Assembly: GCA_041659505.1 (NCBI GenBank)
Contig: JBAZYF010000003.1
Coordinates: forward strand, 86,026-150,025
Direction: 5' to 3'
Source: Parcubacteria group bacterium
Lineage (GTDB): Bacteria > Patescibacteriota > Minisyncoccia > Moranbacterales > UBA2206
DNA length: 64,000 nucleotides
Shown: positions 7,014-21,484 of the stretch, in pieces
How the letters are laid out: the number at the start of each line of letters is the position of its first letter
Position numbering within the stretch: position 1 is the first letter of the stretch
The notes under the pieces: model-generated
Databases searched by the model: none
Seen by the model: only the letters and a program-made list of their open reading frames with translations
Told to the model about the DNA's origin: nothing
Program-made: the position numbers and the translations under genes

Positions 7014-7106
7014 GCAATTTTTTTAATCAATCGCCAAAAAACTATTATTTAAAATCATATTTGCCATTTTGCTTTTCGGGTTTAGTCCAATTTTTTCGCA
7101 AAACTT

Positions 7107-9293
7107 TTATTTTATCATTCGATTGTAGTGTGCCTCATGTCCAGAATTTTCAAATATTTTTTTAAATGCTTCTTTGAAAATTTGAGGATCAACTTCTTTT
7201 GTGTCAGAAATATTTATTCTATCAAAATGTGATTCTCTATTTATATATCTCAAAAAATAAGAGTATTTGCCATCTGTTAGATTTTCAATTGCTTTATCAT
7301 ATTTTTCATTATCAATAAAACCAAAAAAACATTCTAAAATATTTCTCATAGAATTAGCCAATAAACTATCAGGGGCGTTATCGTCTTTTATTATTTGCCA
7401 ATACTGTTGATAGTCATTTAATATCTCATCTTTACCCATTTCAGAAATTATAGATTTTTTTTCTCGATTCTTGGTAATTCTAAAAAGTTTTTCCCTGTCG
7501 TCTTTCTTGTTTTTCTCTGTGTATTTTATTAATTCGTGAAAAAGATATAAATTATGAGTTAAAATGAATACTTGCTTATAGTCATCATTAAAAAAGTTTT
7601 TTCTTATGAGCTGTGCAACATTAAAAACATACATATGCGACAAGCTAGAAATTGGATCATCAATAACAACTATTTTTTCAGTTGCTATATCATCATTATT
7701 TTCTTTGCCTTTGCATAATTCCAAAAAATACAGAAAACTAATTACTGTTTTTTCTCCCTCGCTCAATGTTTCAAATTTAGCAATATCTTCGTTTGGTCTT
7801 TGTAGTTTGTATGACTTTTCTCCAGCTGGAACAATAGAAAATCCATCTAATCCAAAAAATATTAATTCACTATTTATAGCCTCAATTGCATCTTGAATGT
7901 TTACCATTTCCTTTTGTGCGTCTTTTATTATCGTTCCTCGCTCTTCAATATTTTTGTTTAACTCTGAAATTTTAGTTTCAATATCTGATTTTTCTTTTTC
8001 AACTTTCACTTTTTGAGTGTTATAATTTTCTATTGTTTGATCATAATCCCACCGCATAATTTCCCAGAAGTCTTTAATGATCTGATTTCTTGTTTTTTGT
8101 TTGTTTTTTAGCTTTTCATTATGAGTTTTTATTTCATTAATAATTGTATCTAAAAAATCATTCAGTGCTTTTTGTTCTAAAATACTTAATTCTAAGGCAA
8201 TGACTACATTCGGACTTTTAATTTTATTGTTAATTTTTGACCAATTATTGTTCAATTTATCAATAAAATTTTTAAACAAAAGCTTAAATTTGGTTTCTTT
8301 GACCTTTATAAAATCAATTTGTAAAAGTTCATTTTCTAACTTTTTTGCATCCTGATATTCTCTAAAATATTCTTTGTCTAAATCTTCTAATTCTGTGATT
8401 TTTTGTTGGTAAGATACGTCAAAGTAATTTTGAATTTCTTGATATAAATCTTTAGTTATAGTTTTTTGCTGACAAAAAGGACAGATTTTATTTTCCTCTC
8501 GGGGTTCATTTATAAACTCTTTCCCTTTTTTCACCCAATCAGAATTGTTTAATTTCTCAATAAGATCCGCTACTTGTGAATTTTCATTTCCAATAATTAC
8601 TTCTTTGAAAATTTCCTTTTCTTCGGTTTTCCAAAAATCAAAAGTTACTTTTTTAACCAAATTTTCGTCATAAGTTTTGGCGCTTTTTCCTTGCGTTGCT
8701 TCTGCTTCTTTTTTTAAATCTTCTTTTGATTTTTCTGGTTTATTTGCTGGTTTTTGTAATCTTAAAAGATGATCAAATAAGTCTTTTTTGCTTCCCCTTT
8801 TTCCTTCCAAGCAAAATTCCAAAATTCTATCTCCACCCGAATATTTTGTTTTTATCTCCCAAGTTTTATCTTCTGTTGTATTTTGTAAATCAGCGACATT
8901 TTCTTGTTTTTTATTTAAGTCAAATTGAAATCCGGTTTTCAATTCATCGTTTTCAATTTGATTCTTTAGTTTATTTATCTCCTGAGTAGCTGTATCTATT
9001 TTTTCTTTTGCTTCTTTGTTTTCTGACTTCAGACTAAAAATACCTCTTTGTGTGTCCTGATAAAAATTATCACCAACAAATTTTTGATTATAAACTAACA
9101 CTTTTTCATTATTTAGTTCTGCAATTGAACAGCAAGAAAAACAAGCGTTATCTTTATCTTGAAGATAATTTGAAAGAGTTGTTTTTCCTGTCCCATTCAG
9201 TCCATAAATAAGATTGATTTTTTTATCAGTCTCCAAGATAGCGGGTGTTTCCCCATAACTTGCAGTATTTTTTATAGAAATCTTAGTGATCAT
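7107..9293 (-). CDS. AAA_13-family ABC ATPase (PrrC/RloC-like) with a coiled-coil insertion and CxxC hook-like motif
   Basis: Walker A GLNGTGKTT at the N-terminus. Long coiled coil with ICPFCQQK (zinc-hook-like CxxC) in the middle. Walker B/D-loop VVIDDPISSLS. C-terminal region carries R/H-rich motifs (RYINRESHFD, SGHEAHYNRM) compatible with a PrrC/RloC-type nuclease module. Confidence 0.55.
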   Translation of the reverse strand: MITKISIKNTASYGETPAILETDKKINLIYGLNGTGKTTLSNYLQDKDNACFSCCSIAELNNEKVLVYNQKFVGDNFYQDTQRGIFSLKSENKEAKEKIDTATQEINKLKNQIENDELKTGFQFDLNKKQENVADLQNTTEDKTWEIKTKYSGGDRILEFCLEGKRGSKKDLFDHLLRLQKPANKPEKSKEDLKKEAEATQGKSAKTYDENLVKKVTFDFWKTEEKEIFKEVIIGNENSQVADLIEKLNNSDWVKKGKEFINEPREENKICPFCQQKTITKDLYQEIQNYFDVSYQQKITELEDLDKEYFREYQDAKKLENELLQIDFIKVKETKFKLLFKNFIDKLNNNWSKINNKIKSPNVVIALELSILEQKALNDFLDTIINEIKTHNEKLKNKQKTRNQIIKDFWEIMRWDYDQTIENYNTQKVKVEKEKSDIETKISELNKNIEERGTIIKDAQKEMVNIQDAIEAINSELIFFGLDGFSIVPAGEKSYKLQRPNEDIAKFETLSEGEKTVISFLYFLELCKGKENNDDIATEKIVVIDDPISSLSHMYVFNVAQLIRKNFFNDDYKQVFILTHNLYLFHELIKYTEKNKKDDREKLFRITKNREKKSIISEMGKDEILNDYQQYWQIIKDDNAPDSLLANSMRNILECFFGFIDNEKYDKAIENLTDGKYSYFLRYINRESHFDRINISDTKEVDPQIFKEAFKKIFENSGHEAHYNRMIK

Positions 9294-9331
9294 AATTTAA
9301 AATATCAAATTTACTGGATATTTTTTTGATT

Positions 9332-10426
9332 TTATTTCCCCGATTTTCTTCTATTGCATTCTTTGCATAACATTTGGCAATTCTTTGCAACAGTTTTTCC
9401 GCCCTCATGCCAAGGATTTATATGATCAGCTTCCATTTCTTCAATTTCAAAATGTTTCTTGCATTTTTTACAAATGCCTTTTTGTCGCTCATAGGCTTCC
9501 AGCTTCATTTTCTCGTTAAACGCTCGAATATTGAGATATTTTTCTTCACCAGTTAGCACATACCAGTACACGCCTTTTTTGCTGTCAACGTCTTCGTCGG
9601 CAATCAATCGCGCAACTTCACTCTCCAATTCTTCTGCATCTAATTTAGTATTCTTAAATTTACCATATAATTCTCCCCACTCGATTCCTTTCATCATCTT
9701 ACGATATTTTGGAAAAACCATTCGCACCCACTCAATCACTTTTTGAAAATACGCCCATAATTCCTCAGCAGTTGCATCATGTTGATGTTTCCCCATATAG
9801 TCTTCAATTTTATCATTACTAATCCAGCGAAGTACTGTTTCCAAATATTCTTGACGATTTAATGCTCCCCCCATATAGTCATTAGCCGAAAGGGATGCTG
9901 GAGCATTGCTCTTACTAAAATATCGCTTAGCATCAGTTACCCAAGTCCCCGAGTAGATAGCATTTAATAATTCTTGATTCGTTAACTTTTCACCCGCAGT
10001 ATTAATAACCTTAAACCATGCCAATTTCTCATCATATGTACCTTCGCAAAAATAAACCATGAGCTTATAATCCAAAATCTTCGCTTTTTCTTTTTCAGTT
10101 AGATTGTCGAAATACATTTGATATTCACGATTTGTAATGTTAAAGTTACCAGCTACAAAATTACAAATGCTAACTGTGCGCTGTTGTCCATCAAGAATTT
10201 CAAAGCTTCCATCATTATTCTTTACCCAATACATTGCATTTAGCGGAAAACCTCCAATCACTGAATTTATTACAGCAATTTGTTGTTCGGGTTTATAAAT
10301 AAATTCACGCTGATACTTCGGACGAATATCTAATTTTCCGCCATATCCAACCACACCCTCTTCATCGCTATCCTGATATCCAGCAAAAAGTTCACGCACT
10401 GGAATTTCATTTAGTTCAATTTCCAT
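9332..10426 (-). CDS. DUF262 (ParB/GmrSD N-terminal-like) domain fused to a C-terminal HNH endonuclease
   Basis: N-terminal ILDGQQRT motif typical of DUF262. C-terminal CKKCKKHF..ADHINPWHEGGKT..NCQMLCKECNRRK is an HNH zinc-finger nuclease motif. Confidence 0.65.
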   Translation of the reverse strand: MEIELNEIPVRELFAGYQDSDEEGVVGYGGKLDIRPKYQREFIYKPEQQIAVINSVIGGFPLNAMYWVKNNDGSFEILDGQQRTVSICNFVAGNFNITNREYQMYFDNLTEKEKAKILDYKLMVYFCEGTYDEKLAWFKVINTAGEKLTNQELLNAIYSGTWVTDAKRYFSKSNAPASLSANDYMGGALNRQEYLETVLRWISNDKIEDYMGKHQHDATAEELWAYFQKVIEWVRMVFPKYRKMMKGIEWGELYGKFKNTKLDAEELESEVARLIADEDVDSKKGVYWYVLTGEEKYLNIRAFNEKMKLEAYERQKGICKKCKKHFEIEEMEADHINPWHEGGKTVAKNCQMLCKECNRRKSGK

Positions 10427-10427
10427 A

Positions 10428-11486
10428 TTATTTTTTTCGTTTAATTAAAATTCGATTATATATTTTCCTACCTTCAATTAAAGTAAAACATTCGTAACCA
10501 ATCCATCTTGCAGAATTAGCAATGCCCAATATTTCAAACTGCGCTGGGCTATATTTATCAACAAAGGTAATCGGTACGCCCATTACACTCTCATAATCCA
10601 TTGGAATATCAGCAACTTTATCAACATTTATAACGTTGTAGTTATCGTATTTTGGAAATTCTCCCGGCGTATATTTCTTATATAACACTATTTTTTCATG
10701 ACGTTTTGTATTGTCGAGGTTTGTATACCACACAATTCTACCCATACTGAAAAACTTTGTACCATTTTCAATTTTTATTCTTGACTCTGTCTCAATATCA
10801 TAATCATTGGGAACCTGAAACCATTTTGTACCACCATTGTCGTAGCCGTGCCACAATTTATTTTCTTTGATGAAACCGAAAGTTTCTTTATAGGTTACTG
10901 CATTTTGGTCGCCAAGAATCAAAAACTTCTTGTTATATTCAATCAATTGCGCAACATATTCCCGAAACAATGAAAAAGGTGGATTAGTCACCACGATATC
11001 TGCTTGTTTTAAAAGTTCTATACTTTCTTCACTTCTAAAATCTCCATCGCCTTCCAACGGTGCCCATTCATTGTTTTTGTTTGCTTTGAGTTGTTCAGCA
11101 ATATCACGCAAATCAAACGCACCATCACCGTCGAGATCGCTAACTTCATTGATAATGAATTTATTGGCCGTTAATTTTGGACGACCCTTTGTTATGGGCA
11201 GTGTCTTATTATCTCCAAATAATCCAAGTTGAGTATTAGCAATTGGTGATGGTTTGTAACTTGTAGCGATAAGTTTCTTTAGACCCAAAGCATTAAAATT
11301 TGAGGCAAAATACTTAAAAAAGTTACTCTCGAAAGGATCGTCACAATTGCAATATACCACCTTGTCACGAAATTGTTCTTTATAGTGTTTTAATTCCTTT
11401 TCAATATCAACAAGCTGAGTATAAAACTCATCTTTTTTTGCCTTGTTGGCTTTATGCAAATTACTGTTTAATGACTTATTTTCCAT
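10428..11486 (-). CDS. N6-adenine DNA methyltransferase, gamma-class (N6_Mtase-like)
   Basis: Motif X-like DEFYTQ followed by catalytic motif IV VVTNPPF. 1-nt gap to the downstream gene. Whether it is an orphan or R-M-linked MTase is unresolved. Confidence 0.65.
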   Translation of the reverse strand: MENKSLNSNLHKANKAKKDEFYTQLVDIEKELKHYKEQFRDKVVYCNCDDPFESNFFKYFASNFNALGLKKLIATSYKPSPIANTQLGLFGDNKTLPITKGRPKLTANKFIINEVSDLDGDGAFDLRDIAEQLKANKNNEWAPLEGDGDFRSEESIELLKQADIVVTNPPFSLFREYVAQLIEYNKKFLILGDQNAVTYKETFGFIKENKLWHGYDNGGTKWFQVPNDYDIETESRIKIENGTKFFSMGRIVWYTNLDNTKRHEKIVLYKKYTPGEFPKYDNYNVINVDKVADIPMDYESVMGVPITFVDKYSPAQFEILGIANSARWIGYECFTLIEGRKIYNRILIKRKK

Positions 11487-11490
11487 GAAA

Positions 11491-12402
11491 TTACTTATTC
11501 AAATCATAACTTTGCTTGATTAAAATAAAAGCTGATTCAAGGTCTTTTTCATCTTTTAATTTCACCTCATAATCTCCATTGCCCCAGTGTCCCTTTTTAG
11601 GTTTTGTGAAGTCTGTAGATATTTCAAACAAATCAACCAATTCACCACTTTTTACATTAAGTGTGATTCGTATTTCATCCTTATGAATAATCAGGTCGGC
11701 AAAGTTGGTTGCTGTTTTGTAGGCTATATAAAATTTCTTTGGCTCCTCTTTTATTTCCTCGTCGATGGAAATAATTTTTTCGCGCAATTTGTAAAAAAGA
11801 TCTTTTGTTTTTTGATCGGTTTTTTTCAGGTGGTCATCAATCGAATAATTTTTTTGTAGAACCTCGTGCTTTTCTTTTTGATTTTTAGACTTTTTGATAA
11901 TTCCAGAAGTAGAAATTTTTATTTTCTGATAGTTTTCCGGCTCAAGAAAAAGAAGATCGTTTTCATAGATCCTGTATCTCAAAAGTTCGATGTTAATTGG
12001 TAAAATATCTGCCGTGTCTATATCAAATTTGTTATAATTTTCCGCGACACAAATTACCCGCGGAGAATCCCAATCAATATCAATTTTGATATTTTTGTTT
12101 TTGCATAAAAATTCAAAATCAGCTTTGTGATCCAATAGCCAGCGCAAATATGAAAGACCTTGATTGATAACGCTATCGTTTTGATTTTTCTTATACTCAA
12201 TAATGCAGGGTGAGCCATTTTTATCTATACCCAAGGTATCAATCCTGCCCCCGAAACTAGTCGAATATTCATGAGCTAAAAAATCAATATTCAAAATTTC
12301 TTCCAGATTATTTTCAAATAATTTCTGCAAGTCCTTTTCTAGGCCTAAGTCTTTCGTTACTAATTTTGATACCTTTGGATTTTGAATCTTAAATAATGCC
12401 AT
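11491..12402 (-). CDS. NucS/DUF91-like PD-(D/E)xK endonuclease (candidate restriction endonuclease)
   Basis: GGRIDTLGID...GSPCIIEYKK gives a D...E.K nuclease core in a DUF91/NucS-like arrangement. Immediately upstream of the MTase with a 4-nt spacing. Confidence 0.45.
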   Translation of the reverse strand: MALFKIQNPKVSKLVTKDLGLEKDLQKLFENNLEEILNIDFLAHEYSTSFGGRIDTLGIDKNGSPCIIEYKKNQNDSVINQGLSYLRWLLDHKADFEFLCKNKNIKIDIDWDSPRVICVAENYNKFDIDTADILPINIELLRYRIYENDLLFLEPENYQKIKISTSGIIKKSKNQKEKHEVLQKNYSIDDHLKKTDQKTKDLFYKLREKIISIDEEIKEEPKKFYIAYKTATNFADLIIHKDEIRITLNVKSGELVDLFEISTDFTKPKKGHWGNGDYEVKLKDEKDLESAFILIKQSYDLNK

Positions 12403-12648: not shown

Positions 12649-14613
12649 CTACTTGTATTCCTCCAAAAATTCCAGCATTTCCTTTTGTTCGGCGAGGGCT
12701 TCTTTGGCTGATTTTTCGACAGATGCGAGCATACCCTCAAAAGCCACTTTGTTTTCCACCGAGGTGACGCCGCTCAAATGCTTTCGTGCTTTCTCGGTGT
12801 GAAAAAGTGCCTTATTGCATACTTCCTGGATTACCTCATACCAAAATATTTTTTGCAGTTCCTTGATCTCTTTCTTCAAATCCAATTCTTTGAGGCTCTT
12901 GTTCCCGCCTCGTCTTGAGTATTTTTTCAAAACCTCAATTACCGTCGGGCTTAGTTGTCCTTTTTTGAGATCATCTTCCCAATCATGCGCGTCGTCATTA
13001 AGCTGTCTGGCGATTATATAATTTTCAAAGAATGCGAGTAAGTTTTTTATTTCTGAAGACTCAATGTTTTTTGTGTGAAAATACAACACAGCTATTGATC
13101 CCAACGCGTGACCGATGGAACGATCGGCGAGTCTTTCTAATGTTCCAAAATCAGGCAATCGGTCGGGAATCGTCAATCGTGATCCGGCTACCTGCGCTCG
13201 GCAATTAGTTGTCTCCCAGGCATTAGCAGAATCAATCCTGTCCATTGTGTTTTTGAAAAATTGTAAAAATTTTTCATCCTTCGCAAAAGTTTCGCAGTAT
13301 ATTAATGTTAATTCGCGAAGGCAGATATTGGCCAAGGAAAGAAACCTCGGGTCACCTTCGCCATCGAAAAAATCATCATAAATCGTATAGGCTATCCAGC
13401 CATAGAGACTGGCCACTTCCAGTTCAATGAGAATATTCTCATCCACAGCCTTATTGCTCCCCAGCGATTTTTGAAAATAATAGGGCAAGAGGGTTACTCG
13501 ATTTGCGTTGTCTCCTTTCAATATCCTTTTCCTGACAGCCAGAAAATTCTCAGTCAGTTCAGAATTGAAATTAGAAAATCTTTGATCTGTTAGCTTGATT
13601 ATCCTTTTATGTATCCTTTCCTGCTCCCTGTCTATTTTTATTTCTTTTTTATTCTTGACCGACTCATCTTCAGTCAAAAATTTTCCCACAGTTTCCAGAC
13701 AGAATGCCGTTGTAAGTTCCGCGCTACCGGAATAATGTTTTTGTTTCTTTTCTATTTTTTCAACCACGAAGGGATAGGCTTTCCACTCTCCATTTATTTT
13801 GTTTTTCAAGATAGATCCCAGACTTTCCTCCAGTTTTTCCTTATTGTGCCCTAGGTTAATAAGCGCGCTGACTGCCAGTGCGGTTTCCAAGGGATTACCC
13901 CAAGAATGATTCTTGTGCCTATTTTCCAAGAGATAGGAAATTATTTTGTCTTTCTTTTTTCCTTTGTACCAGCGAGAGATAAAATAAATGATGGCGTATG
14001 GGGATTGATAATAGGGAGAGCTGTATCTTCCAGAATCAATCGCTTCTTCCGCGAGAGCAGTCAGACTTTCCAGGGTCACGTCCTGAAGCGAAAGAAAAAA
14101 CGCAATGTTGCTGTTGACCGCCAAATCAATGTCTTTCCAGTCTTTGCCTGCATTCTGTGGAGTGAGCCACGTATAATACGGCCCGCCTTCTTTGCTCTCG
14201 CAAAATGTGAGAAGATTGATGACTTTAGCGATGGCTCTTATGGAGATAATTTTTTGATTATGCTTGGTCAGTGCGACCATAGCGCAACAAGTATCATCCA
14301 AATCGTCCGGGTACGGCGTATCTTTGCTTTCCGGCGAATTTCTTTTCCAATAATTCCACGACCAAAAATCGCTTTTTTGGCTCATCAGAAATTTTGCAGT
14401 TTTGCTTCTTACATTATCAAGCGCCTTTGAACTGGGAAGATTATTGAGACTCGCTAAAATTAAGCACGTGGGAAATGCGGATTGGTTTTCCCTGGATGCA
14501 TTGAAATCTTTTGAAGTTGAAACAAGATTGGAAAAACTTCCGTCTTTTTTTTGCCTTTGATCTAAATAATCAATACTCGCCTTTATCGTTTTGTCTATAT
14601 AGCTATGGTTCAT
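12649..14613 (-). CDS. terpene-synthase-like protein: N-terminal SHC-like class II (alpha/alpha toroid, DxDDT) region plus C-terminal class I (DDxxD) domain
   Basis: The ORF track extends to 14841 through an R-rich junk N-terminus overlapping the histidine kinase gene. A start at ATG 14613 (MNHSYIDKT...) is more plausible. Motifs: PYPDDLDDTCCAMVAL (compare SHC PYYPDVDDTAVV); QW-like repeats (DGSFSN, EGGPYYTW, NHSWGNPLETALAVSAL); C-terminal IYDDFFDGEGD and NDDAHDWED. Confidence 0.5.
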   Translation of the reverse strand: MNHSYIDKTIKASIDYLDQRQKKDGSFSNLVSTSKDFNASRENQSAFPTCLILASLNNLPSSKALDNVRSKTAKFLMSQKSDFWSWNYWKRNSPESKDTPYPDDLDDTCCAMVALTKHNQKIISIRAIAKVINLLTFCESKEGGPYYTWLTPQNAGKDWKDIDLAVNSNIAFFLSLQDVTLESLTALAEEAIDSGRYSSPYYQSPYAIIYFISRWYKGKKKDKIISYLLENRHKNHSWGNPLETALAVSALINLGHNKEKLEESLGSILKNKINGEWKAYPFVVEKIEKKQKHYSGSAELTTAFCLETVGKFLTEDESVKNKKEIKIDREQERIHKRIIKLTDQRFSNFNSELTENFLAVRKRILKGDNANRVTLLPYYFQKSLGSNKAVDENILIELEVASLYGWIAYTIYDDFFDGEGDPRFLSLANICLRELTLIYCETFAKDEKFLQFFKNTMDRIDSANAWETTNCRAQVAGSRLTIPDRLPDFGTLERLADRSIGHALGSIAVLYFHTKNIESSEIKNLLAFFENYIIARQLNDDAHDWEDDLKKGQLSPTVIEVLKKYSRRGGNKSLKELDLKKEIKELQKIFWYEVIQEVCNKALFHTEKARKHLSGVTSVENKVAFEGMLASVEKSAKEALAEQKEMLEFLEEYK

Positions 14614-16081
14614 TTCTAATTGGAAATTCAATAATAAATTTGCTTCCTTGCCCCCAGATGCTTTCAACCTTGATTGTTCCGCCAAAATCTTCCTCGACCG
14701 TGTTTTTTGCGGTTGCCAGTCCAATCCCCGCTCCCTTTTGCGGACCCTTGGTGGTAAAAAACGGATCAAATATCTTATTGCGGATTTCTTCCGAAATCCC
14801 GCCTGCCCGATCTTCAATGGAAATAACCGCCTTTTCGCCACGCTTTTCCAACCCTATCTTTATTTCTTTCCCCTCTTCATTGCTCATTTCATATGCGTCC
14901 AAGGCGTTGAGTATGATATTGGTTACCACATGATTGAATCTGACCGCGTTTCCGTAAGTAAGGATATCAAAATCGCCGCATAGCTTGATATCGACTTTTT
15001 CCGTTTTCAGTTTGTATCCCAGTATTTTGGCGACACCGAGTATCTCTTTCTTGGCCGAAAACAACGCTTCTATTTTTTGGTTTTGAAATTGCTTCTTGGC
15101 ATCTTCGATATATTCCGATATAGCCGCTTTATTATCATTGGCCTGCTTCAAATATTCTCTAATCTCAACCAATTCCTTTTCTCCCCCCTCGGTCGCCTGC
15201 TCTATGTTCAGAAAAAGAAAATTGATATGATTTATAAGGTCGTGGAAAAGTCCGGAGGAAATTTTGCCGAACTCGATAAACCTGGAAGCCTGATTGATTT
15301 TCTCCATTTGCGCCTTCTCTAACTCTCTTGTCCTTTCCTGAACTCTCATTTCCAGCATATCCCGTTCTTCTTTGAGTTCCGCTTCGGATTTTCTCGCTCG
15401 TTTTAATGACCTTTCAATTTCACGATTAGAAAGCCAGGAAACGATGGCGATGACCATGAAGGTTACAGAAAATTGTATGGCATCTTTGATGTCTAATGTT
15501 TCAGGCTTCCAATACACATTAGGTTGTGTCACACCGCTAAGTTGAAAATATGTCACCGCTAAAATAGCGAGGGCTGTCGCGAAAGCAATTCCAAATGCGA
15601 AGCGCGAACCAACCAAAACACCTGACGCCACAATAATAAACGCGTAACCGAGGAGCGCCTCTGGAACATCGGCGCCCCAATGAAAAGCGGTGTAGGTGGT
15701 CAAAATGAAAAAGATTGCTATGAAAACATAGGAGACAAAAACGAAAAGTTCCGCTCGGGAAAGTAAATATAAAACAACAAAGCTAAAAAATACAATCAAT
15801 ATATTGCTCAACGGAAAACCTCGATATTCCAAGCCGACCTTATTTGCTTGATATGCAATAATGAGCGAAAAGGTTGCCGACAAAACAATGGCGGACAATA
15901 GTAAAACATTCAGTATGAATTCGTGGCGCCTGGAGTCTTCGCTTTTTGACTTCGGTTTTATTACTTTTTCAAATAACAAAAAGACACTTTTTTGAAAAAC
16001 GCCAGAGTTGGAAATATCCTTTTCTTGTAGATCGTTTTTCATATAGTGTCTTTTTATAAAAAGCCTACGCCATCGGAGCAT
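14603..16081 (-). CDS. sensor histidine kinase (multi-TM sensor, HisKA H-box, HATPase_c)
   Basis: Six to seven predicted TM helices. H-box FHDLINHINFL. G-boxes (GAGIGLATAK, GGTIKVESIWGQGSKF). Confidence 0.75.
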   Translation of the reverse strand: MLRWRRLFIKRHYMKNDLQEKDISNSGVFQKSVFLLFEKVIKPKSKSEDSRRHEFILNVLLLSAIVLSATFSLIIAYQANKVGLEYRGFPLSNILIVFFSFVVLYLLSRAELFVFVSYVFIAIFFILTTYTAFHWGADVPEALLGYAFIIVASGVLVGSRFAFGIAFATALAILAVTYFQLSGVTQPNVYWKPETLDIKDAIQFSVTFMVIAIVSWLSNREIERSLKRARKSEAELKEERDMLEMRVQERTRELEKAQMEKINQASRFIEFGKISSGLFHDLINHINFLFLNIEQATEGGEKELVEIREYLKQANDNKAAISEYIEDAKKQFQNQKIEALFSAKKEILGVAKILGYKLKTEKVDIKLCGDFDILTYGNAVRFNHVVTNIILNALDAYEMSNEEGKEIKIGLEKRGEKAVISIEDRAGGISEEIRNKIFDPFFTTKGPQKGAGIGLATAKNTVEEDFGGTIKVESIWGQGSKFIIEFPIRNEP

Positions 16082-16296
16082 TGCTCCATGGACTGGCGAC
16101 GCTCACCATCGACATGACAAATGCACTCAATGCGACAGCCTTTCTGGCCTTCTTGCTCGTTAGAATTTTTTTGATGATTTTCTTTTTCATTTCTTCGTTA
16201 TTTTAATTTTTTGATAAAAATAATCCCTCGACCAAGAATTACAAATTTAATTGTATCAAAGCGAGGTAAAGAAAAAGTAAAGAAAATATCAAGAAA

Positions 16297-16968
16297 TCAA
16301 TCCAGTTCCATTTTGTAGCCTCTTCCGTTCACAGTTTGAATCAGGCTCACCTTTCTCCCAATGTCGATCTTGGCACGCAAGTTTCTGATATGTGATTTCA
16401 AAGTATTGGAAAAAGTATCTAAATCCATGTCCCACACGTGCTCCATGATATCTCCCTGCGACAGCGTTCGACCCGTATTTTTGGCTAGATATTCCAAGAG
16501 CATAAATTCTTTTCGCGTGAGATTGATGCTTTTCTTTCCTCGTTTCACCTCATGATTTTTGGTGTTCATGATCAAATCCCCGATTTTTATTGTTTCTCTG
16601 ATTGTGGCGTTCGGGCGACGCAGTAGCGCTTTCACTCTGGACAAAAGTTCCCGAAAAGAAAAAGGCTTGGTCAGATAGTCATCCGCACCATTATCCAAAA
16701 GATCCACCTTGGTGGTAATATCCGACAAGGCCGAAAGCATTATGATTTTCACGTCTTTCTTTTTTTCGCGGATCGCCTGGCACACTTCCAGTCCGCTTTT
16801 CTTGGGTAGCACGTTATCAAGCACGATTAAGTCATAATCATTGCAACGGCCGAGGAATGCTCCCTTCTCGCCATCCGTTGCCACGTCAACAGCAAAAAGT
16901 TCCATCTCAAGATTCGACTTGAGAAAGTCGGAAATTTTAGGGTCGTCGTCTATGACTAAAATTCGCAT
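16297..16968 (-). CDS. OmpR-family response regulator (REC + winged-helix)
   Basis: MRILVIDDD...D receiver motifs. C-terminal trans_reg_C pattern (LTRKEFMLLEYLAKNTGRTLSQGDIMEHVW...GRGYKM). Confidence 0.8.
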   Translation of the reverse strand: MRILVIDDDPKISDFLKSNLEMELFAVDVATDGEKGAFLGRCNDYDLIVLDNVLPKKSGLEVCQAIREKKKDVKIIMLSALSDITTKVDLLDNGADDYLTKPFSFRELLSRVKALLRRPNATIRETIKIGDLIMNTKNHEVKRGKKSINLTRKEFMLLEYLAKNTGRTLSQGDIMEHVWDMDLDTFSNTLKSHIRNLRAKIDIGRKVSLIQTVNGRGYKMELD

Positions 16969-17427: not shown

Positions 17428-17655
17428 TCATGAGACTGAGTCCTCTGGAGCATCCTTCATTTTCTTGAGAAAACCGCGCCTGGTGCGCGATGCCACTTTC
17501 CACCAATTCACAATTTGGCCGTTTTTTATTTCAATCACAACCCGCCCGAAGCCTTCCGCTTCAATAGATGCCAAATCCTTGGCGATTTCCGAAAGGAGCA
17601 GATTGCGCTCCCGCTCATTGGATATATTTGTTTTTTGCTTATTTATTCGGTTCAT
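17428..17655 (-). CDS. small DUF2292/YezD-like protein
   Basis: GRVVIEIKNGQIVNW resembles the YezD family core. Last gene of the phage-like block. Confidence 0.3.
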   Translation of the reverse strand: MNRINKQKTNISNERERNLLLSEIAKDLASIEAEGFGRVVIEIKNGQIVNWWKVASRTRRGFLKKMKDAPEDSVS

Positions 17656-19201
17656 ATTTCAGTCTTTTTTTAAATGCGATATGCCAGTACAGGAGAGCAT
17701 GCCAAGCGTGATCAGTGCCAGTAGTCGATTGCCATTCCCGTTTTTCCTGGCCAAACTGATTAGTAACCGTCCGGGCATACATTGTTTGAGCGTGGTCTAT
17801 TAGCATGCGAAAGGTCGTGTCGTTCGACTGCATGGCAAATTTGATCTCTCCGCGCCTCAGGGATGAGATTGTGTCGTCAATGATGCGATTGCGTGAGGTA
17901 AGCACTTTCACTTCATCCTCGAAAGGTTTTCTGTCTTCCTCCCTCTCGTCATTCCAGCGAATTACCTCGAGCATTTTCGGGTCGTCTTTATAGAAATTCA
18001 CATAGACGCGATAGGGAAATTTGCGAGCCAAACGCAGGGCTTCTTCCGTCCATGGCATAGCGTCAATAACGCATACCCGCACGTCATAGAATTGAATCAG
18101 TTCTGCCATATATTCCCAGCGAGTTTTGTTCGGCCGGTCTTTGATTTTACCAATCCAAAATATTCCTTTGGCATTGCCAATTACGATATGATTCTCATCC
18201 CCGGTATCCGCGCCCATTACGTTCCAGCCGGCTGTTTCGACTTCTTCATTTGTAATATTGCGCAAAAATAGGCTTTGGGGAATTTTCTGATCGGATGCGA
18301 TATAGGGCAAACCGAGAACGAAATTGTAAAAGTATTTTTGGTCTTCGGCATTGGCTTCTTCATCAAGCAGATTAGCCGCACTGCGCCAAGGACACATCAT
18401 TTGACTGATCCAATACCCGCTGATTGCTTCTCCTGGATATCGAGCTTCCCATCGTCCAGTATCACAGACCCAGCGTGAGGTGATTTCTTTTCGGCATTTC
18501 TGGCAGACATAGATTCTTCGTTCGCGGTCAACATTCTTCTCCCAGTCCATATGCTGTTCATAGTTACAATTAGGACAATTAAACCGCCAGTGTTTTTGGT
18601 CGGATTGCCCGAACAACCGATCAATTCCCACGTCCGGAACAGTCGGGGTTGAAAAATAATGCTGACTTCTGATTTTCGAAAATCCCATACGGCTTGTGTA
18701 ATCGCGAATTACCTCCGGCTTGGATTTGTCGAGCTCGTCGTGAATGTTTCTGTCTGAAGTAAGCATAATAGCTTCCTTTTCCGTGTATGTTCCTTTGAAA
18801 AACAAGAATGATTTTCCGATCTGTTTTTGCTCCACCGAATCCACGTCTTTTCCACTCACTCCTTCCAGCACACAGGAATTCACTTTCACGATTCTGTTTA
18901 CCTTGCTCTTTACGAATTCGGCCACATCGTCCACCGTCGGAAGTGTATAAATTTGATTGATGCCCCAAAAACGCGCGGCGTGGATCGCTCGCAAAATCTC
19001 CATCGTGCTAGCTCCAATCTGCGAACCTTTACGGATAACTTGCATCGGAGTACGATCGGAATAAATATCCAGCATAAAGCGGTGATCCGAAAATTCAATT
19101 ACATCGCCACTTTCGCTTTTTATTCCATTCTGCTTGATCCAATACAGAATGCTACTTTTTTGTTTTTCCTTTTCGTCCATAAAAAGCTTTGATAGTTTCA
19201 T
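17639..19201 (-). CDS. phage terminase large subunit (GpA-like)
   Basis: N-terminal ATPase region (KGSQIGAST). Internal CPNCNYEQ....CQKCRK zinc ribbon. C-terminal nuclease-like acidic residues. Preceded by a small-terminase-like gene. Confidence 0.6.
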   Translation of the reverse strand: MKLSKLFMDEKEKQKSSILYWIKQNGIKSESGDVIEFSDHRFMLDIYSDRTPMQVIRKGSQIGASTMEILRAIHAARFWGINQIYTLPTVDDVAEFVKSKVNRIVKVNSCVLEGVSGKDVDSVEQKQIGKSFLFFKGTYTEKEAIMLTSDRNIHDELDKSKPEVIRDYTSRMGFSKIRSQHYFSTPTVPDVGIDRLFGQSDQKHWRFNCPNCNYEQHMDWEKNVDRERRIYVCQKCRKEITSRWVCDTGRWEARYPGEAISGYWISQMMCPWRSAANLLDEEANAEDQKYFYNFVLGLPYIASDQKIPQSLFLRNITNEEVETAGWNVMGADTGDENHIVIGNAKGIFWIGKIKDRPNKTRWEYMAELIQFYDVRVCVIDAMPWTEEALRLARKFPYRVYVNFYKDDPKMLEVIRWNDEREEDRKPFEDEVKVLTSRNRIIDDTISSLRRGEIKFAMQSNDTTFRMLIDHAQTMYARTVTNQFGQEKREWQSTTGTDHAWHALLYWHIAFKKRLKYEPNK

Positions 19202-19715
19202 CTATTGCCAATCCCAACTCCTCTTCTTCCGCTGTCGGTGGTTTTTGATCTTCTTCCTTGATGCTCAATTCGTGCTTACCGAGAGATTCTCCCATCTCCG
19301 TGCGAAACATTTCCCATAGTTTCTTAATCTCGTCGACTGTCGCTCCTTCTCCTTTTTTCATCTGCTTTTTTAGAGCCTGGATTTTTTCCCAAAAAACCTC
19401 ACCGATAACAAACACTTTTTTCTGTTTGATTTCCTGCGCTTTCTTTCGAAGACTCTCAAGATCTTCAGTGAGTTTGAGGTCTTTCCGTTCAACCCAGCGA
19501 TATTTTTTTGACCAAGTTTCTATCGTTGTATCACTTGGTTTCTTGCCAAGCCTTTCGGCAAATTCCACCCAAGTTTCACCCAAGCTTTGCCCAACCTTAT
19601 CCCATAGCCCCAATGTCTTTCGAATGCTTCCCGCTTCGCAATATAAAAGCCAAGCGGTATATTGAGATTCCGTTTCGCTTGGCATTTTTGAAGTTGTAAG
19701 TACGGGCTTTGCCAT
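19152..19715 (-). CDS. putative terminase small subunit / HTH DNA-binding protein
   Basis: Position immediately 5' of the large terminase gene with a 50-nt overlap. Basic helical protein. Confidence 0.35.
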   Translation of the reverse strand: MAKPVLTTSKMPSETESQYTAWLLYCEAGSIRKTLGLWDKVGQSLGETWVEFAERLGKKPSDTTIETWSKKYRWVERKDLKLTEDLESLRKKAQEIKQKKVFVIGEVFWEKIQALKKQMKKGEGATVDEIKKLWEMFRTEMGESLGKHELSIKEEDQKPPTAEEEELGLAIDETIKAFYGRKGKTKK

Positions 19716-19739
19716 ATGGCTTGATCGCTTATCATTTAT

Positions 19740-21077
19740 CTATCCCTTGAGCTTTACTTTTTCCCAGCGCTTTCGAATCACATCGCACCAACAAGGGTCA
19801 AGCTCCAGTAGATAGCAAGTGCGCCCTAATTTATGCGCAGCGAAAAGCGTACTACCTGATCCGCCGAAAAAATCGACAATATTATTTCCGATTCGACTGG
19901 AGTTTTTGATGGCTCGCATAATCAGCCACTCCGGTTTTTCAGTTGGATGAGTCATTTTAGTAACCGCCTTTCTGGGCATATCCCATACGTCGCTTTCATT
20001 ATTGTCACCATAGAAAAAATGACGCTCTCCTTTTTTCCAGCCATACATAATCGGCTGAGCTTTCGTTTTACTCTTGCTTCGCTTGGCTTTCATGATTTGC
20101 TCGTATTGCTTCTTATAATCGCCCCAACCGATAGAGAAAGACGGTTTGACCCAAACGATCGTCGATGAAAATTCAAAGCCTGAATTGAGCATTTCGTAAT
20201 ACCACAGCGAATAACTAGTATAGCCGGTGCAGACATAAATCACTGCGCCGGGCTTCATGATTTCACAATAATTCGCGAATACTTTCTCGCTGAACGCTTC
20301 GAAATCTTCTTGGCTCTGCTGATCTCCCAAAATTCTGCCCTGCTCAGTCGGAAATTTTCCTTTCTTTTCATGACTGACATGAGCCACATTATATGGCGGG
20401 TCAGTAAAAACCATATCGGCTTTGAGCGTACCAAGCAATTTTTTAATATCTTCCATTTTAGTCGCATCTCCGCACATAAGCCGATGCCTTCCGAGTTCAT
20501 AAATTTCGCCGTATTTTGATTTCGGCTTTTTTATTTCCGCATATTCTTCTTCGACAGTTTTTTCTTCTTCATCATCCGGTTCGTCTAGTATTTGACTGTC
20601 CAAGAGATTGCTGATTTCCACTTCATTAAACCCAGTGACGCTCAGATCAAAGTCCGAGTGGTTGAGTTCTGTCATCAGTTCAGCCAGCTTTTCATCATTC
20701 CAATCGCGCCTTTGAGCAATTTTGTTCAAAGCAAGACTCAGGGCTTTTTCTTCTTTTTCGGACAAATCCACCAAATCCACGTTTTCTTTTGGTACTGTCT
20801 CCCAGCCCAATTCCTGTAAAACCATAACGGTCATATTGCCACCAATAATAATGCCCGCACGGCTCTTATTGGTATTTACCGTTATGAGCCCGCGAAGCCC
20901 AAAGCGCTCAATCGATTTTTTTAGCGCATCAATGTCTTCCTGCTTAACTTCTCGCGGATTGTAAGACGGGTGCTTGAGTTCTGAAATTTTTACTATTTGC
21001 GTAGTTTTAACCATAGGTACATGAAAAATATTTTTATACGAATTAATATCATCTGCCATTTTGGAAGCGCGGGACAT
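19740..21077 (-). CDS. ParB-like nuclease domain fused to an N6/N4 DNA methyltransferase (phage-type orphan MTase)
   Basis: N-terminal ParB/Srx-like region (KISELKHPSYNPRE). MTase motif IV VFTDPPYN. C-terminal SAM-binding FFGGSGST. Confidence 0.7.
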   Translation of the reverse strand: MSRASKMADDINSYKNIFHVPMVKTTQIVKISELKHPSYNPREVKQEDIDALKKSIERFGLRGLITVNTNKSRAGIIIGGNMTVMVLQELGWETVPKENVDLVDLSEKEEKALSLALNKIAQRRDWNDEKLAELMTELNHSDFDLSVTGFNEVEISNLLDSQILDEPDDEEEKTVEEEYAEIKKPKSKYGEIYELGRHRLMCGDATKMEDIKKLLGTLKADMVFTDPPYNVAHVSHEKKGKFPTEQGRILGDQQSQEDFEAFSEKVFANYCEIMKPGAVIYVCTGYTSYSLWYYEMLNSGFEFSSTIVWVKPSFSIGWGDYKKQYEQIMKAKRSKSKTKAQPIMYGWKKGERHFFYGDNNESDVWDMPRKAVTKMTHPTEKPEWLIMRAIKNSSRIGNNIVDFFGGSGSTLFAAHKLGRTCYLLELDPCWCDVIRKRWEKVKLKG

Positions 21078-21155
21078 ACTTGCGTCGTTTCCTCTCGCTG
21101 AATCATTTCGATATGCTGTTTTCGCTCTTTGGCCACTGGAAGATTTTTTTGAGAA

Positions 21156-21419: not shown

Positions 21420-21484
21420 ATGATTTGATATGACGGATTTTGTTTCTTTGTCCCGCCCTTAGCGACAAGGCCGCCGTTATTTTA

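What the first reader, a model, noticed from the sequence alone, without database searches (positions are those of the whole stretch)
12649..14613. Terpene-synthase-like protein combining an SHC-type class II DxDDT motif with a class I DDxxD domain, apparently co-transcribed with a two-component system
The N-terminal ~360 aa show alpha/alpha-toroid QW-like repeats and PYPDDLDDTCCAMVAL, close to the squalene-hopene cyclase protonation motif PYYPDVDDTAVV. The C-terminal ~290 aa carry IYDDFFDGEGD and a second acidic NDDAHDWED motif in the spacing expected for a class I terpene synthase alpha domain. A single-polypeptide class II + class I arrangement is unusual in bacteria and unexpected in a reduced genome. 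The gene starts 11 bp inside the 3' end of the histidine kinase gene, suggesting operon membership with the OmpR/HK pair. The ORF-track N-terminus (first 76 aa, R-rich) looks like out-of-frame read-through, so the start was moved to ATG 14613.
Basis: partly seen in the sequence, partly recalled or inferred. Interest (0 to 1): 0.7.

Follow-up and report, generated by a model that had tools for sequence, protein, structure and literature searches.

The report
Peptide-pheromone prenyl-cyclase module in CPR bacteria
The gene most likely encodes a two-domain enzyme that attaches a terpene chain to a tryptophan of a tiny neighbouring peptide and then cyclises that chain, inside a four-gene sensor circuit conserved across the ultra-small Patescibacteria, which suggests these reduced bacteria use a lipid-modified peptide signal.

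Summary
The ORF, its motifs, the corrected start (ATG 14613) and the 11-nt overlap with the kinase gene are all real.

A 41-aa ORF (16065-16190, minus strand) lies between the regulator and the kinase. All 72 non-redundant loci examined have an equivalent of 33-41 aa, with a conserved leader and a Trp 1-7 residues from the C-terminus, usually the peptide's only Trp.
- **Conserved module.** The order is regulator, peptide, polytopic kinase, enzyme. The kinase sits directly upstream in 74 of 77 loci, and some genomes fuse kinase and enzyme.

Best reading: a ComQXPA/PalPXQ-like circuit whose maturase resembles the fused prenyltransferase-cyclase ChrPC. I rate it a new variant of a known kind. No biochemistry exists for it.

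The parts
16297..16968 (-). OmpR/PhoB-type response regulator (receiver domain plus winged-helix Trans_reg_C), first gene of the module
   Evidence: Pfam Response_reg E 1e-26 and Trans_reg_C E 1.3e-23. An orthologue lies upstream on the same strand in 56 of 67 loci with enough sequence.
16266..16295 (-). Three direct repeats (TTCTTGAT / TTCTTTAC / TTCTTTAC) spaced 11 nt apart, just upstream of the peptide gene. Candidate binding site for the OmpR-type regulator (inferred).
   Evidence: Read from the sequence. The same 11-nt-spaced CTTTAC/TCTTTA repeat occurs upstream of the peptide gene in 7 of 72 loci, and similar TTTCTTTAT repeats in a few others. Function not tested.
16250..16258 (-). TGaTACAAT, an extended -10-like element downstream of the direct repeats (inferred promoter of the peptide-kinase-enzyme transcript)
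   Evidence: Read from the sequence. The consensus -35/-10 scan did not report it, because there is no -35 match. This is inference only.
16220..16242 (-). Possible 5'-UTR hairpin with an invariant GGUCG loop, about 40 nt upstream of the peptide start codon
   Evidence: GGTCG lies within 130 nt upstream of the peptide gene in 32 of 71 loci, against 7.5% of random 130-nt windows. With the hairpin imposed, 62% of cells pair against 52% in shuffles, and all 9 pairs show double changes. Support is modest. No Rfam match.
16065..16190 (-). Precursor-peptide gene, 41 aa: MKKKIIKKILTSKKARKAVALSAFVMSMVSVASPWSNAPMA. It has a conserved basic leader (K-K-I-L-T-S-K-x-x-R) and a single Trp 6 residues from the C-terminus.
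   Evidence: Sequence. A peptide HMM hits exactly one six-frame segment per locus, always next to the kinase. It hits in all 72 non-redundant loci and nowhere else among 42,015 segments. In every locus the last Trp is 1-7 residues from the C-terminus; 69 of 72 peptides have only one Trp, and Pro precedes the Trp in 55 of 72.
14603..16042 (-). Polytopic sensor histidine kinase: about 6 transmembrane helices with short loops, then a coiled coil and the kinase core. The likely start is ATG 16042, 22 nt after the peptide stop, rather than the longer ORF start at 16081.
   Evidence: Pfam HATPase_c E 2e-21 and HATPase_c_5 E 1.5e-5. Hydropathy segments. Orthologues align only from about residue 29-36 of the long ORF. 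The kinase is directly upstream of the enzyme on the same strand in 74 of 77 loci. It is fused in frame to the enzyme in P0234 and P0221.
12649..14613 (-). The flagged gene: a 654-aa two-domain protein (class II cyclase beta domain plus trans-IDS-like domain), stop codon included
   Evidence: AF2 model: mean pLDDT 91.3, pTM 0.77.
13669..14613 (-). N-terminal domain (residues 1-315): one alpha/alpha-toroid class II terpene cyclase beta domain
14290..14316 (-). PYPDDLDDT (residues 100-108): class II DxDD proton-donor motif
   Evidence: D104 and D106 are invariant. They align with AsDMS D331 and D333, and invariant Y202 aligns with AsDMS Y427; mutations of all three abolish AsDMS activity (alignment; PMC12365925). 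194 of 226 long family members keep the motif.
12652..13635 (-). C-terminal domain (residues 327-654): all-helical trans-isoprenyl-diphosphate-synthase-like fold, proposed peptide Trp prenyltransferase
13363..13377 (-). DDFFD (residues 413-417): first Asp-rich motif (FARM-like)
   Evidence: D413 and D417 invariant, D414 at least 90% conserved. Family variants are DDFLD, DDFFD and DNFLD.
12970..13005 (-). QLNDDAHDWEDD (residues 537-548): second Asp-rich motif (SARM-like), preceded by an invariant Gln
   Evidence: Q537, D540, H543, D544 and D548 are invariant. hhalign places this segment on the FQxxDDxxD / DIxEGK segment of genuine polyprenyl synthases.

Best explanation
The gene encodes the maturase of a ribosomal peptide signal. 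It belongs to a four-gene module: OmpR-type regulator, 41-aa precursor peptide, membrane-embedded histidine kinase, and this two-domain enzyme. In some genomes a short-chain-type polyprenyl diphosphate synthase is added.

Proposed steps (steps 1-4 are inferred):
1. The C-terminal trans-IDS-like domain binds an allylic prenyl diphosphate, probably C15-C20, through its two DDxxD motifs and Mg2+. It ionises the diphosphate and alkylates the indole of the Trp near the peptide's C-terminus. The conserved basic leader would serve as the recognition element.
2. The N-terminal class II beta domain protonates the terminal double bond of the attached chain through D106 of the DxDD motif, assisted by Y202, and cyclises it. 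This would give a drimane- or labdane-like polycycle on the Trp.
3. The lipidated C-terminal fragment is released by an unknown route and sensed within the membrane by the 6-TM kinase.
4. The kinase signals to the regulator. The regulator may activate the promoter in front of the peptide gene through the 11-nt-spaced direct repeats, giving autoinduction.

Shown here: the folds, the motif conservation, the existence and conservation of the peptide gene, and the synteny and gene fusions.
For: Domain identities:
- The N-domain is a monodomain class II cyclase. The catalytic residues defined experimentally in AsDMS map to invariant D104, D106 and Y202.
- Both Asp-rich motifs and the Gln before the second one are invariant. 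That Gln plus the first Asp of the SARM is the pair proposed to recognise Trp in ComQ, PalQ, ChrPC and Ord1 (PMC13290415).
- Genuine polyprenyl synthases from the same operons have invariant K23, R26, R72, K160, K216 and K226, with R73 at least 90% conserved. The C-domain has no invariant Lys or Arg. Only its SARM segment aligns to them.

Peptide gene:
- A 33-41-aa ORF with a conserved leader and a Trp 1-7 residues from the C-terminus (the only Trp in 69 of 72) is present in 72 of 72 non-redundant loci, always next to the kinase. There were no off-target hits in 1.5 Mb.

Module:
- The kinase is directly upstream in 74 of 77 loci and the regulator in 56 of 67. A polyprenyl synthase is in the operon in 11 of 64; its best NCBIfam matches are short-chain (GGPP/FPP) synthases.
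- Kinase and enzyme are fused in frame in P0234 and P0221.
- 13 of the 15 members that have lost DxDD keep both Asp-rich motifs, so the prenyl-diphosphate-binding domain is the core function.
- The kinase has about 6 TM helices and no large extracellular domain.

Precedents:
- ComQXPA and StheQ/StheX.
- The PalP-PalX-PalQ cluster of kinase, precursor and prenyltransferase.
- ChrPC and NctPC, fused prenyltransferase plus MstE-like cyclase enzymes that prenylate Trp of a ribosomal peptide and then cyclise the chain.
Against: - There is no biochemical evidence.
- No sequence-level homology to ComQ, PalQ, StheQ or ChrPC could be shown.
- The domain keeps a canonical DDxxD second motif, whereas ComQ and StheQ have a pseudo-SARM (NDxxx) that binds no metal.
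- The regulator is OmpR-type, not ComA (NarL)-type. The gene order (A-X-P-Q) differs from comQXPA.
- No protease or exporter is conserved in the neighbourhood.
- In Moranbacteria-like peptides the middle segment is hydrophobic, so the peptide could instead be a small membrane protein or a signal-peptide-like sequence. In Saccharibacteria it is not hydrophobic.
- The absence of IPP-binding residues rests on sequence comparison, not on a residue-level structural superposition.
Confidence: 0.62

Rival explanations
1. A bifunctional terpene synthase acts on free isoprenoids. The class II domain cyclises FPP or GGPP to a bicyclic diphosphate, and the C-terminal domain then ionises that diphosphate, as a class I domain would, to release a free terpene. 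The two-component system only regulates expression.
For: DxDD and two Asp-rich motifs are conserved. The closest solved relative of the N-domain, AsDMS, acts on free FPP. Polyprenyl synthase genes occur in some operons. Plant and fungal beta-gamma-alpha enzymes set a precedent for sequential class II and class I chemistry (established knowledge).
Confidence: 0.12
2. A membrane-lipid model. The enzyme makes a polycyclic terpenoid lipid, a hopanoid or sterol surrogate for organisms that cannot make fatty acids. The intramembrane kinase senses membrane state or that lipid. The small ORF encodes a membrane-anchored accessory protein of the kinase, not a substrate.
For: The kinase is almost entirely membrane-embedded. 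In Moranbacteria and Parcubacteria the peptide has a hydrophobic core resembling a TM helix. Small membrane proteins that modulate kinases are known (established knowledge).
Against: In Saccharibacteria and other lineages the peptide's middle segment is polar or Ala-rich and not TM-like, while the leader motif and the near-C-terminal Trp stay conserved. That pattern is typical of a leader plus modification site. The C-domain lacks chain-elongation residues. One beta barrel is unlike triterpene cyclases.
Confidence: 0.12
3. A PvCPS-like bifunctional enzyme. The C-terminal domain is a true chain-elongating prenyltransferase that makes FPP or GGPP, and the fused class II cyclase converts it to a bicyclic diphosphate.
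Against: There is no Pfam polyprenyl_synt hit in any of 48 members. The invariant GKxxR, RRG and GK basic residues of the co-encoded genuine synthases have no conserved counterpart, and hhalign probability is only 3.9%. A separate genuine synthase is encoded in the same operon in 11 of 64 loci, which would be redundant.
Confidence: 0.05

Closest known systems
ChrPC (and NctPC): fused prenyltransferase-terpene cyclase maturases of ribosomal peptides (Hubrich et al. 2024, Chem 10:3224; known to me only as summarised in PMC13290415)
   Same: One polypeptide combines a prenyltransferase with an MstE-like monodomain class II cyclase. In ChrPC the prenyltransferase domain is trans-IDS-like. The acceptor is a Trp of a ribosomal precursor peptide, C10-C20 donors are used, and the cyclase domain then cyclises the attached chain.
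   Different: Homology to ChrPC was not tested, because its sequence and the primary paper were not available. The domain order here is cyclase then prenyltransferase; the order in ChrPC was not verified. The precursor here is a 33-41-aa peptide with its own leader motif. The module is hard-wired to a kinase and a regulator. In the named records it is restricted to Patescibacteria, where it is very widespread. NctPC uses an ABBA-type prenyltransferase fold, unlike this protein.
ComQXPA quorum sensing of Bacillus, and ComQ-family enzymes (ComQ, StheQ)
   Same: An IDS-superfamily enzyme with a DDxxD first motif, a short precursor with a Trp close to the C-terminus, a polytopic histidine kinase and a response regulator are encoded together.
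   Different: ComQ has no fused cyclase. ComQ and StheQ have a pseudo-SARM (NDxxx) without metal binding, whereas a canonical DDxxD is kept here. ComA is a different regulator type (here OmpR-type by Pfam). The gene order differs. No detectable sequence similarity was shown.
PalP-PalX-PalQ of Paenibacillus alvei (PMC10853753)
   Same: A cluster of kinase, precursor and prenyltransferase, with a conserved Trp at the end of the precursor. The enzyme is from the isoprenoid-synthase superfamily and was first annotated as a terpene synthase.
   Different: PalX has an NHLP leader and a strictly C-terminal Trp. Here 1-7 residues follow the Trp. PalQ has no cyclase domain.
AsDMS drimenol synthase (HAD phosphatase + TC-beta; PDB 9mhs, 9m7d) and MstE (PDB 6sbb)
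   Same: Closest solved structures to the N-domain: one beta barrel, with the DxD(D/T)T acid motif and its Tyr partner conserved. MstE cyclises a prenyl chain already attached to an aromatic head group.
   Different: The partner domain is a trans-IDS-like domain, not a HAD phosphatase. Of the five AsDMS residues that bind diphosphate and that I mapped, the three arginines are not conserved (R378 to A155, R380 to D161, R425 to P200; from the alignment), whereas Y426 maps to the conserved Y201 and Y373 to the invariant W149.
Ord1 (PDB 9v4g), all-helical indole farnesyltransferase of the IDS superfamily
   Different: Ord1 acts on a free indole substrate (free tryptophan according to PMC13290415) and is a stand-alone protein.

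Membership tests
Squalene-hopene / oxidosqualene cyclases (SHC/OSC) | Two alpha/alpha barrels (beta + gamma), about 620-730 aa | tested here: not met
Squalene-hopene / oxidosqualene cyclases (SHC/OSC) | Profile membership (Pfam SQHop_cyclase, TIGR01787/TIGR01507) | tested here: not met
   PF13243 scores 17.1 bits against a cut-off of 26.1. TIGR01787 scores 15.9 against 322.7, and TIGR01507 scores 11.1 against 431.1.
Squalene-hopene / oxidosqualene cyclases (SHC/OSC) | DxDD proton-donor motif | tested here: met
   The motif is D104-L-D106-D107. D104 and D106 are invariant.
Monodomain class II terpene cyclases (TC-beta: MstE, AsDMS cyclase domain) | One beta barrel, structurally closest to known monodomain cyclases | tested here: met
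Monodomain class II terpene cyclases (TC-beta: MstE, AsDMS cyclase domain) | Catalytic Asp pair and the Tyr hydrogen-bonded to the acid (AsDMS D331, D333, Y427) | tested here: met
   They align to invariant D104, D106 and Y202. Their roles come from PMC12365925.
Monodomain class II terpene cyclases (TC-beta: MstE, AsDMS cyclase domain) | Protonation-initiated cyclase activity | not testable with these tools
   Needs an enzyme assay.
Class I terpene synthases (alpha-domain cyclases) | DDxxD plus an NSE/DTE triad, (N,D)Dxx(S,T)xxxE | tested here: not met
   DDFFD is present. In N539-D540-D-A-H543-D-W-E-D547 the S/T position is His, and the final position is variable (E, K, D, A, R, Q).
Class I terpene synthases (alpha-domain cyclases) | Closest structural neighbours are class I cyclases; Pfam Terpene_synth_C / Terpene_syn_C_2 | tested here: not met
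Chain-elongating trans-isoprenyl diphosphate synthases | IDS fold with FARM and SARM | tested here: met
Chain-elongating trans-isoprenyl diphosphate synthases | Conserved basic residues for IPP and diphosphate binding (GKxxR, RRG, KT, GK) | tested here: not met
   Genuine synthases from the same operons have invariant K23, R26, R72, K160, K216 and K226, with R73 at least 90% conserved. The C-domain alignment has no invariant Lys or Arg; only [RK]498-S499 resembles the KT motif. This comparison is by sequence only.
Chain-elongating trans-isoprenyl diphosphate synthases | Pfam polyprenyl_synt (PF00348) membership | tested here: not met
   No hit in any of 48 members. hhalign against 13 genuine synthases gives probability 3.9%.
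Trans-IDS-like peptide Trp prenyltransferases (ComQ, PalQ, StheQ, ChrPC P domain) | IDS-superfamily fold with a conserved first Asp-rich motif | tested here: met
Trans-IDS-like peptide Trp prenyltransferases (ComQ, PalQ, StheQ, ChrPC P domain) | Conserved Gln just upstream of the second motif, paired with that motif's first Asp or Asn | tested here: met
   Q537 and D540 are invariant. The feature is described in PMC13290415. Canonical IDS enzymes also have this Gln, so it does not discriminate.
Trans-IDS-like peptide Trp prenyltransferases (ComQ, PalQ, StheQ, ChrPC P domain) | Pseudo-SARM (NDxxx) in place of DDxxD, as in ComQ and StheQ | tested here: not met
   A canonical DDAHD is conserved.
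Trans-IDS-like peptide Trp prenyltransferases (ComQ, PalQ, StheQ, ChrPC P domain) | A cognate short precursor with a Trp at or near the C-terminus, encoded nearby | tested here: met
   Present in 72 of 72 non-redundant loci. In the window it is at 16065-16190.
Trans-IDS-like peptide Trp prenyltransferases (ComQ, PalQ, StheQ, ChrPC P domain) | Sequence homology to ComQ (IPR033965), PalQ or ChrPC | not tested
   No reference sequences were obtainable with these tools. PDB profile searches found no prenyltransferase, not even Ord1.
Trans-IDS-like peptide Trp prenyltransferases (ComQ, PalQ, StheQ, ChrPC P domain) | Demonstrated Trp prenylation | not testable with these tools
   Needs co-expression or an in vitro assay with mass spectrometry.
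Fused prenyltransferase-cyclase RiPP maturases (ChrPC type) | A trans-IDS-like prenyltransferase and an MstE-like class II cyclase in one polypeptide | tested here: met
   The family is described in PMC13290415.
ComQXPA-type quorum-sensing locus | Modifying enzyme, precursor, polytopic kinase and regulator encoded together | tested here: met
ComQXPA-type quorum-sensing locus | comQ-comX-comP-comA gene order with a ComA-type regulator | tested here: not met
   The order here is regulator, peptide, kinase, enzyme. The regulator carries Trans_reg_C and is therefore OmpR/PhoB-type.

The most novel reading that the evidence does not exclude
Patescibacteria (CPR) as a whole carry a conserved, autoinducing peptide-pheromone circuit. 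Its signal would be a short ribosomal peptide bearing a polycyclic terpenoid on a near-C-terminal tryptophan, made by one cyclase-prenyltransferase fusion enzyme and read by a dedicated intramembrane kinase. That would be the first phylum-wide cell-cell (or symbiont-host) signalling system in these ultra-small episymbionts, and a natural role in signalling for terpene-cyclised peptides.
Probability: 0.4. Interest if true: 0.85.

Novelty: new variant of a known kind. Interest (0 to 1): 0.75.

Why it matters
CPR/Patescibacteria have tiny genomes and little biosynthetic capacity, and almost none have been cultured. Nothing in the literature I could search links them to peptide prenylation or ComX-like signalling.

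- **Biology.** The module spans Moranbacteria, Parcubacteria, Microgenomates, Doudnabacteria and Saccharibacteria. The enzyme has at least 1,165 clusters at 50% identity with E below 1e-30. That retention implies an important function, plausibly density sensing or partner sensing during episymbiosis.
- **Enzymology.** The family adds more than a thousand diverse fused cyclase-prenyltransferase enzymes, each with a matched natural peptide substrate. They could be used for peptide lipidation and terpene cyclisation.
- **Annotation.** These proteins are currently labelled 'hypothetical' or 'terpene cyclase/mutase family protein'. In the two loci where gene calls cover the interval it was called but left unannotated; in four others no gene was called there.

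Tried and rejected
- **Sequence searches on the C-domain.** Pfam, NCBIfam and PDB searches gave nothing significant. The weak p14 and Mdm2 hits are chance matches.
- **Profile search of 1.84 billion representatives with the C-domain.** I hoped to find other architectures. The 150 listed hits were all the same family, so distant relatives stayed invisible. The short hits I inspected (P0121, P0122, P0125) are fragments that begin inside the N-domain, and P0121 sits on a 1,125-nt contig. They are not stand-alone prenyltransferases.
- **afdb50 fold search.** The library was unavailable.
- **Primary ChrPC/NctPC paper.** PMC11484575 is not held. Comparison with ChrPC therefore rests on a review.
- **Conserved protease or exporter.** Clustering of neighbouring ORFs found none. 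It found only occasional single-domain receivers and ABC ATPases.
- **Chain length of the co-encoded synthases.** I considered predicting it from residues upstream of the FARM. I kept only the NCBIfam best-match statement (short-chain types, all below cut-off).
- **Phage origin.** A terminase-like gene is adjacent, but the window carries SecA, four tRNA synthetases, TopA, RelA/SpoT, ParAB and ribosomal protein L1, so it is a bacterial chromosome.
- **5'-UTR hairpin.** Rfam has no match.
Full report
**1. Observation**

ORF 12649..14841 (-) is real. All aligned homologues (41-83% identity, 640-670 aa, 100% coverage) start there. The stop of the upstream kinase gene, TAG 14603-14605, lies 11 nt inside the gene.

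- PYPDDLDDT, with D104 and D106 invariant.
- DDFFD, with D413 and D417 invariant.
- QLNDDAHDWEDD, with Q537, D540, H543, D544 and D548 invariant.

The window is a bacterial chromosome. It carries SecA, TyrRS, AlaRS, HisRS, MnmA, TopA, RelA/SpoT, ParAB, signal peptidase I and ribosomal protein L1. It comes from a Moranbacteria-like member of the Patescibacteria; the nearest named homologues are 75-83% identical.

**2. The two domains**

An AlphaFold2 model built on 48 sequences is confident (pLDDT 91.3). It shows two domains joined by a disordered linker at residues 317-326.

*N-terminal domain (residues 1-315).* This is one alpha/alpha barrel.
- A family profile hits only the cyclase domain of Aquimarina drimenol synthase (AsDMS) in the PDB, at E 7.6e-12.
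- The AsDMS residues whose mutation abolishes activity are D331, D333 (the acid) and Y427 (PMC12365925). They align with invariant D104, D106 and Y202.
- The domain is therefore very probably an active class II cyclase of the beta-only type. It is not an SHC: the SHC profiles are far below threshold.

*C-terminal domain (residues 327-654).* It has no significant sequence match in Pfam, NCBIfam or the PDB.
- Modelled alone it is confident (pLDDT 91.1, pTM 0.90).
- The indole farnesyltransferase Ord1 scores 19.7 and the prenyltransferase domain of PvCPS about 19.
- Class I terpene cyclases score only 12-14 and squalene synthase HpnC 13.2.
- DDFFD therefore corresponds to the first Asp-rich motif (FARM). 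QLNDDAHD corresponds to the FQxxDDxxD second motif (SARM). hhalign against 13 genuine synthases from the same operons reproduces exactly that register, including DLKKG on DIxEGK, although the score is weak (E 0.011, probability 3.9%).
- Those genuine synthases have invariant basic residues: GGKxxR, the first Arg of RRG, KT and GK. The C-domain family has no invariant Lys or Arg at all.
- I infer that the domain binds and ionises an allylic diphosphate but does not condense it with IPP.

**3. What surrounds the gene**

I examined 82 non-redundant loci. They come from look-ups of individual homologues and from a scan of one genome per species. The scan covered Moraniibacteriota, Parcubacteria/Paceibacterota, Microgenomates lineages, Doudnabacteria, Saccharibacteria and others.

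- An orthologous histidine kinase lies directly upstream on the same strand in 74 of 77 loci with enough sequence. It usually overlaps the enzyme gene or ends within a few nucleotides of it.
- An OmpR-type regulator lies upstream of the kinase in 56 of 67 loci.
- A bona fide polyprenyl synthase is inside the operon in 11 of 64 loci, either directly downstream or between the regulator and the kinase. Its best NCBIfam matches are short-chain (GGPP/FPP-type) enzymes, all below cut-off.
- No other partner is conserved.

The regulator and the kinase are nearly always separated by about 200 nt. That gap holds a small ORF in every locus. An HMM of it finds exactly one segment per locus, always adjacent to the kinase, in all 72 non-redundant loci. 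Some of these loci were not used to build the model. In two loci the peptide-kinase pair is inverted relative to the enzyme, and the hit still lies next to the kinase. Nothing else matches among 42,015 six-frame segments.

The peptides are 33-41 aa long:
- The leader is conserved: M-x-x-[LIV]-[LIV]-x-K-[LIV]-L-T-[DSN]-K-x-x-R.
- The middle segment is variable.
- The last Trp lies 1-7 residues from the C-terminus in every case, 69 of 72 peptides contain only that one Trp, and it follows Pro in 55 of 72.

In the window the gene is 16065-16190 (-), encoding MKKKIIKKILTSKKARKAVALSAFVMSMVSVASPWSNAPMA. The kinase then probably starts at ATG 16042. It has about six transmembrane helices with short loops and no large extracytoplasmic domain.

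**4. Further links between the genes**

- Two family representatives (P0234, 1,018 aa; P0221) are in-frame kinase-enzyme fusions.
- Of 226 long family members, 194 keep the class II acid motif. Of the 15 that have lost it, 13 still keep both Asp-rich motifs. The diphosphate-binding domain is therefore the indispensable part and the cyclase an add-on. That is the opposite of what a class II then class I relay on free isoprenoids predicts.

**5. Comparison with known systems**

Three precedents match this anatomy.
- *ComQXPA.* ComQ is an IDS-superfamily enzyme that prenylates a Trp near the C-terminus of ComX. ComP is a polytopic kinase and ComA the regulator. StheQ/StheX extends the family to Chloroflexi, and the StheQ structure shows an IDS fold adapted to indole prenylation.
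- *PalP-PalX-PalQ.* This is a cluster of kinase, precursor and prenyltransferase with a conserved C-terminal Trp.
- *ChrPC and NctPC.* These are fused prenyltransferase plus MstE-like cyclase maturases. They put a C10-C20 chain on a Trp of a ribosomal peptide and then cyclise the chain. The prenyltransferase domain of ChrPC is trans-IDS-like (PMC13290415, citing Hubrich et al. 2024, which I could not read).

The CPR protein works like a ChrPC-type maturase embedded in a ComQXPA/PalPXQ-type sensory locus.

Differences:
- A canonical rather than pseudo second Asp-rich motif.
- An OmpR-type regulator.
- Gene order regulator, peptide, kinase, enzyme.
- Its own leader motif.
- Distribution across Patescibacteria.

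Family membership in the ComQ or ChrPC sequence families could not be tested.

**6. Mechanism proposed**

All steps are inferred. The C-domain prenylates the Trp using FPP or GGPP. The beta domain protonates the distal double bond (D106) and cyclises the chain. Since its nearest relative makes the drimane bicycle from a farnesyl chain, a drimane- or labdane-type ring system on the indole is the simplest guess. The lipopeptide is released and sensed in the membrane by the kinase.

Upstream of the peptide gene in the window and its relatives there are 11-nt-spaced TTCTTTAC direct repeats, the typical geometry of OmpR/PhoB sites. An extended -10-like TGaTACAAT follows them. This fits autoinduction but is untested.

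**7. Rivals**

- A membrane-lipid model in which the small protein is a kinase accessory: 0.12.
- A PvCPS-like synthase-cyclase: 0.05.

Each fails to explain either the universally conserved Trp peptide, the missing elongation residues, or the retention of the Asp-rich motifs when DxDD is lost. None is excluded without biochemistry.

**8. Novelty and interest**

The chemistry class (terpene-cyclised, Trp-prenylated ribosomal peptides) and the circuit logic (ComQXPA) are both known. Not described in anything I could search:
- their combination;
- the conserved precursor family;
- the hard-wired two-component coupling, including gene fusions;
- the phylum-wide spread in organisms thought to have minimal secondary metabolism. 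The C-domain profile finds 1,662 clusters at 50% identity with E of 1e-3 or better, and 1,165 with E of 1e-30 or better.

One earlier survey reported no SHC in CPR (PMC7306690). That agrees with this being a different, beta-only protein. I rate it a new variant of a known kind, interest 0.75.

Caveats:
- The primary ChrPC paper and recent reviews outside the held library may already mention CPR homologues.
- Several TPA record titles for these loci ('uncultured Gammaproteobacteria', 'Bdellovibrionales') look like mislabels of CPR bins. I could not verify this.

Noticed in passing
window 16220-16242 (-), and the equivalent position in 31 other loci: A possible conserved 5'-UTR hairpin whose loop is an invariant GGUCG, about 40 nt upstream of the peptide start codon. 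GGTCG is present in 32 of 71 loci against 7.5% of background windows. The stems differ between lineages, with some compensatory changes, but only 62% of cells pair. No Rfam match.
   Followed up: partly
window 16266-16295 (-): Three TTCTT(T/G)A(C/T) direct repeats with 11-nt spacing, followed by TGaTACAAT. This looks like an OmpR/PhoB-type activator site replacing the -35 in front of the peptide gene. It is also present in L001, L009-L012 and L068, and in weaker form in L006, L008 and L088.
   Followed up: partly
P0234 (1,018 aa), P0221 (783 aa); possibly also P0229 (765 aa), whose sequence I did not inspect: In-frame fusions of the histidine kinase with the cyclase-prenyltransferase protein. 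In these two fusions, and in about a dozen other members, the class II DxDD motif is lost (for example GINFLAL) while both Asp-rich motifs of the C-domain are kept.
   Followed up: partly
window 225-358 (-): Rfam LOOT RNA (RF03000): 71.1 bits against a gathering score of 46.4, with a full-length match.
   Followed up: no
window 483-12402 (-): A low-GC stretch (0.31-0.33 against about 0.41-0.45 elsewhere) packed with defence-type genes: DUF2326, DUF2726, Schlafen AlbA_2, DUF2779, AAA_13, GmrSD_N-HNH, an EcoRI-like adenine methylase and DUF5655. It starts about 250 nt downstream of the enzyme gene. The GmrSD-HNH plus EcoRI-methylase pair also lies downstream of the 44%-identical homologue in L005 (13130-15269).
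   Followed up: no
window 17639-24109 (-): A terminase large subunit gpA-like gene, a ParB_N-N6/N4 methylase, a C5 cytosine methylase and a weak Phage_rep_O-like gene lie directly upstream of the regulator. The terminase-like gene and neighbours recur at the same position in four related loci (for example L009-L011). This looks like an old, syntenic prophage remnant rather than a recent insertion.
   Followed up: partly
L003 3337-4712 (Doudnabacteria contig): A reverse transcriptase (RVT_1) next to a bAvd-family gene, about 3.3 kb upstream of the module. It looks like a diversity-generating retroelement.
   Followed up: no
window 40444-42333 (-) and 54788-55494 (+): A TrwB/TraG-like type IV coupling protein with a DUF87/HerA domain. 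Separately, an IS200-like Y1 transposase lies immediately after a tRNA gene (54788-54869).
   Followed up: no
loci L021, L022, L030, L033, L038, L042-L044, L047, L049-L051, L065, L068, L070, L076: The public record titles call these contigs 'uncultured Gammaproteobacteria' or 'Bdellovibrionales'. They nevertheless carry the same module, at 38-75% identity to proteins otherwise found only in Patescibacteria. These are probably taxonomic mislabels of CPR bins.
   Followed up: no
window 14603-16081 (-): The mechanical ORF start of the kinase (16081) overlaps the peptide gene by 17 nt. Orthologues align only from about residue 29-36, so ATG 16042 is the more likely start.
   Followed up: partly
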